From positions 16,158-80,157 of IMG/VR virus record IMGVR_UViG_3300031566_005149: a stretch of 64,000 nucleotides of DNA. The stretch is one strand, 5' to 3'. The notes under the pieces were generated by a model. The model was not told the DNA's origin, ran no database searches, and saw nothing but the letters and a program-made list of their open reading frames with translations. This DNA is from a virus. The translations under genes and the position numbers were made by a program. This document shows, piece by piece, positions 28,435 to 56,339 of the stretch (the first letter of the stretch is position 1; each line of letters begins with the position of its first letter).

Positions 28435-29307
28435 TCATTTTCCATTTTTACATTTCATATCCTGATACCCACATTCTTTTTTTCTATGAACTCCTCTATG
28501 GCATTTCTTACAGTAAGTAATACATTTATCAATATCAGCACTCTCAAGTGGTTCCCATCTAATTCCTTCAATATGATGACAGTGCAAAGATTTTATAAAA
28601 CCACACTTCCGGCAAGTCCAGTTATCTCTTTCAAAAACCAGATGCCTAAGTTGTGGTTGAACTTCTCTTGATAAGTATTTTGTCTTATTTTCTTCGGCTG
28701 AATATTTTTGTTTTCTATATATTGAGCATTCCTTTTTACATTCATTACTACAATATAATCTATACTCTCCACCGACTGTTCCATTTAAAGCATATATTCT
28801 GCATTGAATTTCACTTCTTTTTGGTGTATACCACCTACCACAATATGTGCATGTAACATCTAAAATTTTAGAATTCTCTTTATTTCTTTTCACCTTTTCA
28901 GCATATTTTATTTGACTTGCATAGGTATTATATAATGGTATATTCTTTTGATAATAACCACCAGACCAATTAGGATGTTTTTTTCCTTTCATTTTTCCTT
29001 TTCGATTTCTTCTTATTAATCTTTTGGTTTCTTCCGACCGAATGAGACCATGGCTCGGACTGTTTTCTCCTCTAAAACGCCCAATTAAAGATTTACTAAT
29101 TTTTTCTTTCGTTTTATCTGAAGGATTTCTACTTGTTAAATAACACGATTTGCTACAAAAATTGCTAATTTTATGAAAGTACGTTAAATATGGATTTCCA
29201 CATTTATCACATTTATCTATATAAACATAAGCATGTTTGTTTTCAAACCATCTATTTGTTTTTAAGTCATATTTTAATTTATTTAAATTATCCCAACATA
29301 TTTTCAT
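28435..29307 (-). CDS. Free-standing HNH endonuclease with NUMOD3 repeats
   Basis: SEETKRLI, HPNWSGG; VFERDNWTCRKCG...LHCHH...CKKCH. Confidence 0.85.
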   Translation of the reverse strand: MKICWDNLNKLKYDLKTNRWFENKHAYVYIDKCDKCGNPYLTYFHKISNFCSKSCYLTSRNPSDKTKEKISKSLIGRFRGENSPSHGLIRSEETKRLIRRNRKGKMKGKKHPNWSGGYYQKNIPLYNTYASQIKYAEKVKRNKENSKILDVTCTYCGRWYTPKRSEIQCRIYALNGTVGGEYRLYCSNECKKECSIYRKQKYSAEENKTKYLSREVQPQLRHLVFERDNWTCRKCGFIKSLHCHHIEGIRWEPLESADIDKCITYCKKCHRGVHRKKECGYQDMKCKNGK

Positions 29308-29310
29308 AAA

Positions 29311-30378
29311 CTATTTATCATATCCTTTTTCTTTTATAAATGTTTTCCATTTAGTTTCATATTCCTCATCTTTAATTATATAGCTATCATATTTCCATTT
29401 TTTAAAAAAACCAGTACGTTCACTATATGGACCAAATTCTTTTCTTTTAGAATTATCATATATCGGTTTGTTGCCGTAATATTCTAAATTTGAATACCGT
29501 CTGTTGAAAAAACTGTCCTCCCCAGTATCATAATACATATACAAATAACGATAATCACCTGTCAAATAAAATTTATATAAAGTATCTTTTTCATGTTTGC
29601 TAAAATATTCTCCATCGTTCCTCATGTCAAAAAAATTTTTTGATAAAGGATTCAAATGTTGTTGACATATTACCTTCATTTCGCCACCAAGATTTCTGAA
29701 TCCAACCAACTCCTTCCAAGTGCTCGGTTGATTGTAACTTGCATAATGATCAATCTTTCCAGCATATTTATGACCCTTCGGAAATAAGGGTTGCATTCTC
29801 GGGACAATGTTTTTAATGTTTCTCTCTTTTACAAAGTCCCTCAATAAAACTTCGGGGCTGTAACTTTCAGGGATATTATTCTCTAACATGGCTATGACAT
29901 AATCAACGAACATATGAAATACCCAACATTTCATTATCATAGCGGCTGTATGTAATGTGCTATCTGCCGTAACACACATCATATCTCCATCATTGCGTTT
30001 AACCACATCTTTAAGTTTATCAACATTCTCTGGCTTCTCCCAAATGCAGTCACCGTTCGTAATTATAACAGCCTCAATATTGTTCAGGGGCCTGATGAGT
30101 CCACCCGCGAGGACCACATCATACAACCACCCTATTCGCTTCTCAGCACCGTATGTGATAGGTTTTGTTACTATTGAATGTGGTATATTCATTATATTAT
30201 CATGTGGCCAGGATTTATGTGAATCATATGATAGTATCACGTACTTTCCAGTTTTCATATAATTGTTTAATGTTGCCTCTAAGAACATGCGATGTCCAGG
30301 ATGGCTAGTGACTATAATTGCTGTATCTGTTCTTAGGATAAAATCATTTTGTTTGTATTGTTTAGATGTTGCTACCAT
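29311..30378 (-). CDS. Putative GT-A-fold glycosyltransferase, paralog of 26517-27479
   Basis: AIIVTSHP..RMFL, ITNGDCIWEKPEN, TWKELVGFR shared with paralog. Confidence 0.5.
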   Translation of the reverse strand: MVATSKQYKQNDFILRTDTAIIVTSHPGHRMFLEATLNNYMKTGKYVILSYDSHKSWPHDNIMNIPHSIVTKPITYGAEKRIGWLYDVVLAGGLIRPLNNIEAVIITNGDCIWEKPENVDKLKDVVKRNDGDMMCVTADSTLHTAAMIMKCWVFHMFVDYVIAMLENNIPESYSPEVLLRDFVKERNIKNIVPRMQPLFPKGHKYAGKIDHYASYNQPSTWKELVGFRNLGGEMKVICQQHLNPLSKNFFDMRNDGEYFSKHEKDTLYKFYLTGDYRYLYMYYDTGEDSFFNRRYSNLEYYGNKPIYDNSKRKEFGPYSERTGFFKKWKYDSYIIKDEEYETKWKTFIKEKGYDK

Positions 30379-42112: not shown

Positions 42113-42196
42113 GCCACCGTCCCTCAGCGGTTGAGAGGACCGGATTTGTAATCCGGTGGATAATATCCCACGTAGGTTCGAATCCTACCGGTGGCT
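42113..42196 (+). tRNA. tRNA-Thr(UGU) with long variable arm
   Basis: GCCACCG/CGGTGGC acceptor; CCTC/GAGG D arm; CCGGA-TTTGTAA-TCCGG anticodon arm; 15 nt variable region; GTAGG-TTCGAAT-CCTAC; no encoded CCA. Confidence 0.88.
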
Positions 42197-42234
42197 CTAT
42201 CCTTAATTAAATCAATAAGTTAGGAGAAACAACA

Positions 42235-55405: not shown

Positions 55406-55489
55406 ATGAAATATTTCAAACCTCGCCCTATCTAGATTACCTCTTGGATCTCATCCAGGGGTCCTCCCATTCACTATAATAAACCATAA
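55406..55489 (+). CDS. Leader peptide MKYFKPRPI(TAG)ITSWISSRGPPIHYNKP with in-frame amber and RGPP motif
   Basis: SD TAAGGAG at 55392-55398; TAG 55433-55435; RGPP 55457-55468; TAA 55487-55489. Confidence 0.75.
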
Positions 55490-55544
55490 TGAGATCAATA
55501 CGCAAAAATAAACCACTTTAATGAATCAAACGGAGGAAACAAAC

Positions 55545-55943
55545 ATGACTGAAATAACTTACACTAAAGATCAACGAAAAGTATTTAAGGAACTGAAGAT
55601 GAAGATTAAGGCTGAACTAAACAATTTGGTGATGAGCATTCGCCTCGGTAAGCCTTTGAGAAAACCGTGTGTGTACAATATATCCATTGAAGAACACAAA
55701 ATAATGTTTGGGGGTTTAGACCACAATCGGGTTACATATAGACATGCACATATTGCATATTGCATGTTCTTCAACCGTACGCCATATGCAATGATCGAGC
55801 ATCCAAGAAAAAATAACAAACCATCGTCCTACATGATCGAAGACTATCAAAAGAATTGGGAAAATCAATTAAATGATGCTATTAGTATGATAGCGGCAGT
55901 GGAAAGTGAAGAAGATGAAGAAGCGATTGTGGAGGCTGCATAA
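55545..55943 (+). CDS. Conserved phage hypothetical protein (RHAHIAYC...RTPY.MIE motif)
   Basis: SD GGAGG; alternative in-frame start at 55521. Confidence 0.8.
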   Translation: MTEITYTKDQRKVFKELKMKIKAELNNLVMSIRLGKPLRKPCVYNISIEEHKIMFGGLDHNRVTYRHAHIAYCMFFNRTPYAMIEHPRKNNKPSSYMIEDYQKNWENQLNDAISMIAAVESEEDEEAIVEAA

Positions 55944-55944
55944 C

Positions 55945-56256
55945 ATGAACCCAAAACCAACGTAGGACAAACTATTCGTAATCATACGAAAAGATCTATC
56001 CCACTCTCAGAGAGCTGTTCAAGCTGGCCATGTGTTAGCAGAGTATATGATACACAGCTCTCTGGAAGGCTGGCAAAATACAACCCTTGTATATCTAGGA
56101 GTTAAGGGGTTGAAACAATTGGAAAATCTAAAATTCAAATTGGAATGTGAAGGTATCCAGTTCGTCGAGTTTAAGGAACCTGATATAGGCTACGAAACGA
56201 CAGCTATAGCCAGTGATGTTGATTGCGAGATCTTTTCTAAAATGAATCTCATATAA
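55945..56256 (+). CDS. Pth2-like peptidyl-tRNA hydrolase interrupted by in-frame TAG at codon 7
   Basis: SD GGAGG, ATG 55945, TAG 55963-55965, then KLFVIIRKDL...AVQAGH, EF.EPDIG.ETTAIA; the ORF track shows only the part from 56032. Confidence 0.85.
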
Positions 56257-56264
56257 AATGGTGT

Positions 56265-56339
56265 GGGCCAGTAGCTCAGTGGTAGAGCGGGAGACTCTAA
56301 ATCTCTTGGTCGAGAGTTCAAAACTCTCTTGGCCCGCCA
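56265..56339 (+). tRNA. Amber suppressor tRNA (anticodon CUA), CCA encoded
   Basis: GGGCCAG/TTGGCCC; GCTC-AGTGGTA-GAGC; GGAGA-CTCTAAA-TCTCT; GAGAG-TTCAAAA-CTCTC; G73-CCA; followed by T-run. Confidence 0.93.

What the first reader, a model, noticed from the sequence alone, without database searches (positions are those of the whole stretch)
55945..56256. Pth2-like gene needs amber readthrough to include its conserved N-terminal motif
Seen: the called ORF starts at GTG 56032, after the KLFVIIRKDL...AVQAGH segment; there is no in-frame ATG/GTG/TTG between the TAG and 56032, and the SD-supported ATG is at 55945. Known: the RxDL...QxxH segment is part of the Pth2 core. Inference: active enzyme is made only by suppression; standard gene callers will truncate this family.
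Basis: partly seen in the sequence, partly recalled or inferred. Interest (0 to 1): 0.75.

Follow-up and report, generated by a model that had tools for sequence, protein, structure and literature searches.

The report
Amber-gated Pth2-like gene beside suppressor tRNA
A soil phage that otherwise uses the normal genetic code has a UAG stop as codon 7 of a small tRNA-hydrolase-like gene, and 8 bases after that gene it encodes its own UAG-reading tRNA; about 130 other large phages, some lab-grown, keep the same gene-tRNA pair, so the protein is most likely made only when that tRNA overrides the stop.

Summary
ATG 55945 has a GGAGG 9 nt upstream. Codon 7 is TAG (55963-65). No ATG/GTG/TTG follows before GTG 56032, and any product starting at or after GTG 56032 would lack strand 1 and most of helix 1 of a confidently predicted Pth2 fold.

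A canonical tRNA with anticodon CUA starts 8 nt after the gene's stop. In 122 of 124 related phage and metagenome loci that have any downstream tRNA, the first one is CUA. A helical partner gene lies directly upstream in 119 of 136 loci and is sometimes fused to the Pth2-like domain.

Of 140 non-redundant family members, 23 carry an in-frame stop, and it is always TAG. Ten of these, including cultured Serratia phage BF and Acinetobacter phage ME3, have the window's layout: start codon, early TAG, no later start. The adjacent partner gene has no TAG. The gene also avoids TAG as its own terminator (5 of 133).

The 80-kb record is not recoded genome-wide. Read-through by the adjacent tRNA is therefore strongly supported, but by comparison only. 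The enzyme's activity, the inserted residue and any regulatory purpose are inferred.

I found no paper describing the module. This scan has found it before on other DNA.

The parts
55406..55489 (+). Leader mini-ORF of the same operon. AAGGAG precedes ATG 55406, TAG is codon 10 (55433-35), then ...SSRGPP..., with TAA at 55487. This is a second UAG gate. It is the subject of another finding and is listed here only as context.
   Evidence: similar TAG...RGPP strings lie upstream in L154 and L139
55521..55943 (+). Partner gene, 140 aa (132 aa from the second Met). It is predicted as three long helices and carries the motif YRHxHIAYC...IE.P. It sits directly upstream of the Pth2-like gene in 119 of 136 related loci and is fused to it in some.
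   Evidence: no Pfam, PHROG, PDB or Foldseek match
55931..55935 (+). Shine-Dalgarno GGAGG, 9 nt before ATG 55945
   Evidence: sequence
55945..56256 (+). Pth2-like ORF of 103 codons with one in-frame TAG at codon 7; terminator TAA
55963..55965 (+). In-frame amber codon (ACG-TAG-G), two codons before the conserved KLFVIIRKDL strand
56265..56339 (+). tRNA with anticodon CUA: a canonical cloverleaf with anticodon loop CUCUAAA, G73 and an encoded CCA. It starts 8 nt after the ORF's stop codon.
   Evidence: ARAGORN; Rfam tRNA, 67.7 bits
56340..56346 (+). Run of seven T straight after the tRNA's CCA; possibly the end of the transcript
   Evidence: sequence only; the terminator scan found nothing

Best explanation
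The stretch is the core of a conserved three-part phage module: a helical partner protein, a Pth2-fold protein, and an amber-suppressor tRNA(CUA), all on one strand and probably on one transcript. In this phage the Pth2-like reading frame starts at ATG 55945 and is interrupted by UAG at codon 7. When release factor 1 wins at that codon, only a hexapeptide is made. When the phage's own tRNA(CUA), encoded 8 nt downstream, reads the codon, the full 103-residue protein is made. The amount of protein therefore follows the suppressor activity in the infected cell. Shown by sequence and comparison: the anatomy, the Pth2 fold, the conserved linkage, and the repeated, gene-specific occurrence of TAG and only TAG. 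Inferred: that the tRNA is expressed and charged; which residue it inserts; that the protein, probably together with its partner, hydrolyses an ester on a tRNA; and that it acts either on the suppressor tRNA itself or on the by-products of read-through.
For: (1) Anatomy. SD plus ATG, TAG at codon 7, and no later canonical start before residue 30.
(2) Fold. AF2 model pLDDT 93.9. Foldseek's top 13 PDB hits are all Pth2 structures (2zv3, 3erj, 1q7s, 1wn2, 1xty, 1rlk) except 2gax_A, with TM 0.53-0.72. The family profile hits Pth2 chains at E about 1e-3. Pfam PTH2 matches 47 of 64 members. A product starting at or after GTG 56032 lacks strand 1 and most of helix 1.
(3) Linkage. The first tRNA downstream of the gene is CUA in 58 of 59 viral loci and 64 of 65 metagenome loci. 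In the viral loci the median gap is 57 nt and 22 gaps are 20 nt or less.
(4) In-frame stops. In 140 non-redundant members there are 13 internal TAG and 10 early TAG with no later start, and no TAA or TGA.
(5) Specificity. The partner gene in the same operons has 0 TAG in 11,846 aligned codons, against 13 in 12,781 for the Pth2-like gene; Fisher p = 2.7e-4.
(6) Terminator choice. The gene ends in TAA 69 times, TGA 59 times and TAG 5 times.
(7) Cultured phages. Serratia phage BF (M-T-H-TAG, gene unannotated, tRNA-CUA 3.3 kb downstream) and Acinetobacter phage ME3 (M-T-TAG, tRNA-CUA 450 nt upstream) infect standard-code hosts and have the same layout.
(8) No genome-wide recoding. Large genes in the 80-kb record are intact under code 11, and none of 10 other read-through candidates has a profile hit spanning its TAG.
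(9) Integrity. The window protein keeps all seven invariant family residues. Differences from relatives fall 0.29/0.15/0.59 by codon position.
(10) tRNA quality. The anticodon loop is CUCUAAA in 47 of 62 of these tRNAs, which is the loop of efficient amber suppressors such as supF (from memory). The base after the in-frame TAG is a purine in 19 of 23 cases.
Against: Nothing is experimental. No RNA, ribosome or peptide data were available, and the public contigs I could lay did not bridge the TAG, so an assembly error in this one record is not strictly excluded. About 84% of family members have no TAG, so the gate is optional for the module. TAG ends 14 of 95 coding-strand ORFs in the window, so a strong suppressor would extend those proteins; this argues for weak or timed suppression. 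The tRNA's amino-acid identity could not be inferred, and its discriminator base varies among loci. The Pth2 Lys loop is not conserved, so hydrolase chemistry is uncertain. CheckV puts the record at 23% complete, so TAG-containing late genes could lie in the unseen part.
Confidence: 0.72

Rival explanations
1. Tolerated, not selected. The TAG is read through by the tRNA, but only because nonsense TAGs in a gene co-expressed with a suppressor are nearly neutral. On this view the TAG has no regulatory role.
For: Most family members lack a TAG. The TAGs sit at variable or N-terminal positions where any residue would do.
Against: The partner gene on the same transcript has 0 TAG against 13 (p = 2.7e-4). 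Ten independent early TAGs have each moved or kept a start codon upstream. The codon before the TAG is Thr in 10 of 23 cases, far above background. All three point to selection on the site.
Confidence: 0.17
2. Pseudogene or assembly error. The TAG is a recent nonsense mutation, or a miscalled base, in a decaying or mis-assembled gene, and no full-length protein is made.
For: There is a single stop very early in the gene, and no independent read support was obtained.
Against: All seven invariant residues are kept and there are no frameshifts. The SD-ATG lies upstream of the TAG, whereas most relatives have their Met at or just after the TAG position. The same layout recurs in 9 other lineages, and every stop is TAG, never TAA or TGA. 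The cognate tRNA is adjacent.
Confidence: 0.05
3. Initiation downstream of the TAG at a non-canonical codon (for example ATC 55978 or ATA 55981), or re-initiation after the hexapeptide, with no need for suppression.
For: An AGGA overlaps the TAG (55964-67), about 10 nt before ATC 55978.
Against: Starting there deletes most of strand 1, KLFV. ATC and ATA starts are very rare in bacteria (general knowledge). This does not explain why the blocking stop is TAG in 10 of 10 start-less relatives, nor the 13 internal TAGs.
Confidence: 0.04
4. The phage is genome-wide TAG-recoded (code 15-like) in late genes that lie outside the recovered 23% of the genome, and this TAG is just one of many.
For: Homologues occur in Lak phages, which are known to be TAG-recoded. 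The record is incomplete.
Against: Large genes across the 80 kb are intact under code 11, and TAG terminates 14 of 95 ORFs. The partner gene never carries a TAG in any of 119 loci. BF and ME3 are complete and were annotated under the standard code.
Confidence: 0.1

Closest known systems
Archaeal/eukaryotic peptidyl-tRNA hydrolase 2 (Pth2, Pfam PF01981; e.g. 2zv3, 1xty, 1q7s)
   Same: The predicted fold is the same alpha/beta fold (TM 0.53-0.72). The strand-1 R-x-D-L motif and the helix-1 Q-x-G-H-A motif are shared. An acidic residue (E78) aligns with the Asp of Pth2's D-A-G motif.
   Different: The protein is shorter (about 96 aa against 115-120). The G-K-G-K loop is two residues shorter and reads S-x-S-Q. 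The window protein scores below Pfam's cut-off. The gene is found in phages and is almost always tied to a tRNA(CUA) and a helical partner. Activity is untested.
prfB (release factor 2) autoregulation through an early in-frame UGA
   Same: An early in-frame stop codon in a translation-related gene makes the yield depend on how that stop is decoded in the cell.
   Different: Here the escape is read-through by a dedicated co-encoded tRNA, not a +1 frameshift. The product is not the factor that reads the stop. The sign of any feedback is unknown.
Stop-codon-recoded phages and their 'code change modules' (suppressor tRNA + tRNA synthetase + release factor; bioRxiv 10.1101/2021.08.26.457843)
   Same: A phage-encoded tRNA(CUA) acts in a host with the standard code, and the in-frame stops are read only after the phage changes decoding.
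   Different: No genome-wide recoding is seen in 80 kb; the TAGs are confined to this operon. The module consists of a Pth2-like protein and an unknown helical protein, neither of which that paper mentions.
Orphan suppressor tRNAs of standard-code jumbo phages (e.g. Xanthomonas phage XacN1, PMC5852040)
   Same: tRNA(CUA) genes occur in phages that use the normal code. XacN1 also has a homologue of this protein.
   Different: The XacN1 authors could not find any target for the tRNAs. Here a candidate target gene sits next to the tRNA.
ArfA, made only from a truncated non-stop message when tmRNA fails
   Same: The logic is the same: a rescue or clean-up factor whose synthesis is conditional on the very translation state it deals with.
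   Different: The mechanism differs (RNase III cleavage and a non-stop message against stop-codon suppression), and there is no homology.

Membership tests
PTH2 peptidyl-tRNA hydrolase (PF01981) | Pth2 alpha/beta fold | tested here: met
   The AF2 model has pLDDT 93.9. The top 13 Foldseek PDB hits are all Pth2 except 2gax_A (unknown function), with probability 0.94-1.0 and TM 0.53-0.72.
PTH2 peptidyl-tRNA hydrolase (PF01981) | Score above Pfam's gathering cut-off (23 bits) | tested here: not met
   The window protein scores 15.4 bits, E 0.023. Of 64 relatives, 47 match at E <= 0.01, best 2.2e-6. The family profile hits Pth2 chains in the PDB at E 8e-4 to 1e-3.
PTH2 peptidyl-tRNA hydrolase (PF01981) | Conserved catalytic residues (Lys of the G-K-G-K loop, Asp of D-A-G; assignment from memory of the S. 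solfataricus work) | tested here: inconclusive
   In the HMM alignment the Lys loop is two residues shorter and reads S-x-S-Q. The invariant E78 aligns with the Asp. Q26, H29, D80 and T86 are invariant in the family.
PTH2 peptidyl-tRNA hydrolase (PF01981) | Hydrolysis of peptidyl-tRNA | not testable with these tools
   This needs an enzyme assay or pth(ts) complementation.
Genome-wide TAG-recoded phage (code 15) | Many genes with in-frame TAG and fragmented ORFs under code 11 | tested here: not met
   ORFs of 650-1006 aa are intact under code 11. Reading TAG as sense gains less ORF length than reading TGA or TAA as sense. None of 10 read-through candidates has a profile hit across its TAG. Only 23% of the genome is seen.
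Genome-wide TAG-recoded phage (code 15) | Phage-encoded tRNA with anticodon CUA | tested here: met
   ARAGORN and Rfam both find it (67.7 bits) at 56265-56339.
tRNA-Pyl (ARAGORN's label for the tRNA) | Atypical tRNA-Pyl shape (small D-loop without G18-G19, 3-nt variable loop, no T-psi-C-like loop) together with a pylS gene | tested here: not met
   The cloverleaf is canonical, with D-loop AGUGGUA, a 5-nt variable loop and T-loop UUCAAAA, and it scores highly on the general tRNA model. ARAGORN's label rests on the anticodon alone. I did not search for pylS.
Pseudogene | Stops of any kind, frameshifts, loss of conserved residues | tested here: not met
   There is one TAG only, all invariant residues are kept, and across the family there are 23 TAG and no TAA or TGA.

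The most novel reading that the evidence does not exclude
The partner protein, the Pth2-like protein and tRNA(CUA) together form a self-contained controller of suppression. On this reading the Pth2-like/partner enzyme acts specifically on the phage's own suppressor tRNA, removing its amino acid or peptide, or on ribosomes that have read through UAG. Because the enzyme is itself made only by UAG read-through, it would set the level or timing of stop-codon suppression in phages that keep the standard code. That would be a tRNA-specific Pth2 relative and a natural amber-gated feedback loop, and it would explain the 'orphan' suppressor tRNAs of jumbo phages.
Probability: 0.2. Interest if true: 0.9.

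Novelty: new variant of a known kind. Interest (0 to 1): 0.8.

Why it matters
Many large phages that use the normal genetic code carry amber-suppressor tRNAs, and no target for them has been found; the XacN1 authors say so explicitly (PMC5852040). This locus and its roughly 140 relatives give a concrete, conserved target right next to the tRNA: a Pth2-fold protein whose gene repeatedly acquires UAG, and only UAG. If the reading is right, it is a natural genetic circuit that senses stop-codon suppression. It is also a possible early step, or a control element, in the evolution of phage code change. It shows as well that gene callers miss or truncate these genes: the gene is cut to 69 aa here and is not annotated in Serratia phage BF (nor at the matched site in its relatives from Yersinia and Erwinia). 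The question is directly testable in cultured phages (ME3, BF).

Tried and rejected
- Megablast of 4 kb against the phage collection found no match.
- Public runs: seven soil or sediment DNA holders were listed and no RNA holder. The contigs that could be laid were fragmentary and did not bridge 55963-65, so there is no independent check of the TAG and nothing on expression.
- tRNA isotype: similarity to 113 other phage tRNAs gave no consistent nearest isotype. The CUA tRNAs resemble each other (mean identity 0.58) more than any isotype (0.53 at most), and the discriminator base varies. The aligned residues at TAG positions are variable, so the inserted amino acid could not be inferred.
- Partner protein: no hit in Pfam, PHROGs, PDB sequence profiles, Foldseek or the ESM Atlas.
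- dN/dS: dS is saturated against the nearest relatives, so only the codon-position pattern could be used.
- Other in-frame TAG candidates in the window: none has a profile hit spanning its TAG. One of them, 28435-30378, is a gene followed in frame by an HNH endonuclease ORF.
- The promoter/terminator scan was no better than shuffled sequence.
- Rfam found no ribozyme or other element beside the tRNA.
- The 6-kb flanks of related loci show no clear TAG recoding compared with a TGA control.

Full report
WHAT IS THERE. The window is bases 16158-80157 of an 80,157-base IMG/VR virus record from soil. G+C is about 35%, and CheckV rates the record 23% complete, so it is probably a piece of a jumbo phage. 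At the finding, GGAGG (55931-35) lies 9 nt before ATG 55945. The frame reads M-N-P-K-P-T, then TAG (55963-65), then DKLFVIIRKDLSHSQRAVQAGH and on to TAA 56254-56. No ATG, GTG or TTG lies between the TAG and GTG 56032. The public gene call for this DNA is a 69-aa fragment that starts at ATG 56047 (P0003). Eight bases after the stop codon a 75-nt tRNA with anticodon CUA begins (56265-56339). It has a canonical cloverleaf, an encoded CCA, and scores 67.7 bits on Rfam's tRNA model. Seven T follow it. ARAGORN calls it 'tRNA-Pyl' only because of the anticodon.

IS THE PROTEIN Pth2-LIKE, AND DOES THE N-TERMINUS MATTER? The read-through product scores 15.4 bits on Pfam PTH2, below the cut-off of 23. 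Other evidence is stronger. Of 64 aligned relatives, 47 match PTH2 at E <= 0.01. A profile of the family hits solved Pth2 chains at E about 1e-3. An AlphaFold2 model (pLDDT 93.9) has Pth2 structures as 12 of its 13 top Foldseek hits; the other is 2gax_A, a protein of unknown function. TM-scores are 0.53-0.72. Residues 9-15 form strand 1 and residues 20-37 form helix 1, so a product starting at residue 30 or 35 could not fold. Seven residues are invariant in the family (V25, Q26, G28, H29, E78, D80, T86), and the window protein has all of them. The Lys-bearing loop of canonical Pth2 is two residues shorter here, while E78 aligns with Pth2's Asp. Fold membership is therefore established, but the chemistry is not.

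THE CONTEXT IS THE MAIN RESULT. A scan of viral contigs gave 68 loci with 34-70% identity, mostly from contigs of 40-470 kb. A scan of metagenome contigs gave 80 more. In 58 of the 59 viral loci and 64 of the 65 metagenome loci that have any tRNA downstream, the first one has anticodon CUA and lies on the same strand. In the viral loci the median gap is 57 nt, and 22 gaps are 20 nt or less. The gene upstream in the window (55521-55943) is found directly upstream of the Pth2-like gene in 119 of 136 non-redundant loci. It is fused to the Pth2-like domain in some phages: L057, L060 and L069, and database proteins P0228 and P0229. Its family has 1,548 cluster representatives at E <= 1e-3. It is predicted as three long helices with an invariant R..H and IE, and it matches nothing known. 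The unit is therefore partner protein, Pth2-like protein and tRNA(CUA).

THE TAG IS A RECURRENT, SPECIFIC FEATURE. I examined 140 non-redundant members: 136 loci, the window and three cultured phages.
- Thirteen have one internal in-frame stop, and every one is TAG.
- Of 137 members with an intact 5' end, 127 have a normal start just before the conserved core. Ten have none after the nearest in-frame stop. In all ten that stop is TAG, and a start codon lies 2 to 30 codons upstream of it in frame.
- As a control, the nearest upstream in-frame stop across all loci is TAA 55, TGA 40 and TAG 37. Ten out of ten TAG then has p about 5e-7.
- The ten include the window, L139 (same position: P-TAG-E-K-L-Y), L165 (T-TAG-L-K-L-Y) and two cultured lineages. 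Serratia phage BF reads M-T-H-TAG; the gene is not annotated in its GenBank record, and its tRNA-CUA lies 3.3 kb downstream. The search table also shows no annotated feature at the matched site in its relatives from Yersinia and Erwinia. Acinetobacter phage ME3 reads M-T-TAG, with a tRNA annotated 'anticodon CTA' 450 nt upstream.
- The partner gene in the same operons has no TAG in 11,846 aligned codons, against 13 in 12,781 for the Pth2-like gene (p = 2.7e-4).
- The Pth2-like gene avoids TAG as its own terminator: TAA 69, TGA 59, TAG 5.
- The base after the in-frame TAG is a purine in 19 of 23 cases. The tRNA's anticodon loop is CUCUAAA in 47 of 62. From memory, both are features of efficient amber suppression in E. 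coli.

NOT GENOME-WIDE RECODING. Under code 11 the 80-kb record has intact ORFs of up to 1,006 aa. Reading TAG as sense gains less ORF length than reading TGA or TAA as sense. TAG ends 14 of 95 coding-strand ORFs in the window. None of ten other read-through candidates has a PHROG hit across its TAG. The only other plausible in-frame TAG is in the leader mini-ORF of the same operon: ATG 55406, TAG at codon 10, then an RGPP string. That leader is the subject of another finding.

HOW IT MOST LIKELY WORKS. Ribosomes start at ATG 55945. At codon 7, release factor 1 competes with the phage tRNA(CUA). Termination releases a hexapeptide, and read-through yields the full Pth2-fold protein. Because the tRNA lies 8 nt downstream with no evident promoter in between, the message and the tRNA probably come from one precursor, so protein yield would follow suppressor activity. 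This much is supported by comparison, with confidence about 0.7. What the protein does is inferred. It has a Pth2 fold, it is fused or paired with a basic helical partner, and it is always beside a tRNA(CUA). That suggests an ester hydrolase acting either on that tRNA, which would set the level of suppression, or on peptidyl-tRNAs and stalled complexes produced by read-through, which would be clean-up on demand. I cannot choose between these two.

RIVALS.
- Neutral tolerance of TAG in a gene co-expressed with a suppressor is the strongest rival (about 0.17). It is weakened by the complete absence of TAG in the partner gene and by the context bias.
- A pseudogene or assembly error (0.05) does not fit the intact invariant residues, the upstream SD-ATG or the TAG-only pattern. 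However, I could not verify the base in independent reads.
- Non-canonical initiation after the TAG (0.04) would delete strand 1 and does not explain why the blocking stop is always TAG.
- Hidden genome-wide recoding in the unseen 77% of the genome (0.1) cannot be excluded for this phage. It would not explain the TAG-free partner gene or the cultured standard-code carriers.

COMPARISON WITH WHAT IS KNOWN. The logic resembles prfB autoregulation (an early in-frame stop used as a sensor) and ArfA (a factor made only in the state it deals with). The tRNA belongs with phage suppressor tRNAs and recoded phages. But the 'code change module' described for recoded phages consists of a tRNA, a synthetase and a release factor, and the papers I could search do not mention a Pth2-like protein next to suppressor tRNAs. 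The XacN1 paper states that no targets could be found for its two CUA tRNAs. The held library is not the whole literature. Within this scan the same module has been reported repeatedly on other DNA. Those notes agree with what I found independently. One later check priced the bold 'self-contained switch' reading at about 20%, which I adopt for the novel case. New here, as far as I can tell, are five items: the partner gene and its fusions, the TAG contrast between the two genes, the 10-of-10 start-less test, the avoidance of TAG as terminator, and the Thr-TAG context.

VERDICT. This is a new variant of known kinds: stop-codon-gated expression and phage suppressor tRNAs. It is testable in cultured phages. 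Interest 0.8.

Noticed in passing
window 42113-42197 (+): This is the only other tRNA in the 80-kb record. It has anticodon UGU (Thr) but is 85 nt long with a long, class II-type variable arm, which is unusual for tRNA-Thr.
   Followed up: no
in-frame TAGs of the family (window 55960-65; L025, L036, L042, L046, L062, L165, L182, L183, L075): The codon just before the in-frame TAG is Thr (ACN) in 10 of 23 cases (binomial p about 3e-7 at 6% background), His in 4 and Pro in 3. I have no explanation. It may be a context that favours read-through, and it may relate to the odd tRNA-Thr above.
   Followed up: partly
window 55406-55523 (+): A leader mini-ORF with an AAGGAG site has TAG at codon 10, then an RGPP string, and ends in TAATGA. 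Similar TAG...RGPP strings lie upstream of the partner gene in L154 and L139. This is a second UAG gate in the same operon.
   Followed up: partly
L057, L060, L069; proteins P0228, P0229: Here the partner protein and the Pth2-like domain form one polypeptide of 185-197 aa. This natural fusion argues that the two proteins work together.
   Followed up: partly
L073 (Serratia phage BF, KY630187, 286110-286352): The homologue is not annotated in the GenBank record of this cultured phage. The search table also shows no annotated feature at the matched site in Yersinia phage fHe-Yen9-04 and the Erwinia pEa_SNUABM phages. In BF the likely cause is TAG at codon 4.
   Followed up: partly
L074 (Xanthomonas phage XacN1, ORF364): The Pth2-like domain is the C-terminal part of a 279-aa ORF with no TAG, and it is far from the phage's CUA tRNAs, which lie in the terminal repeats. 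This is an exception to the tight linkage.
   Followed up: no
window 28435-30378 (-): A 355-aa gene ends in TAG exactly in frame with a 290-aa HNH endonuclease ORF. With an active suppressor the two would be joined. The arrangement is probably chance.
   Followed up: partly
L047 and L055, partner gene: The partner gene carries one in-frame TGA in these two loci. It could be an alignment artefact or a different recoding in those phages.
   Followed up: no
window 56254-56265 and 22 related loci: The tRNA starts only 3-20 nt after the stop codon. RNase P cutting would therefore leave the message with almost no 3' tail after its stop, which might itself affect termination or stability.
   Followed up: no
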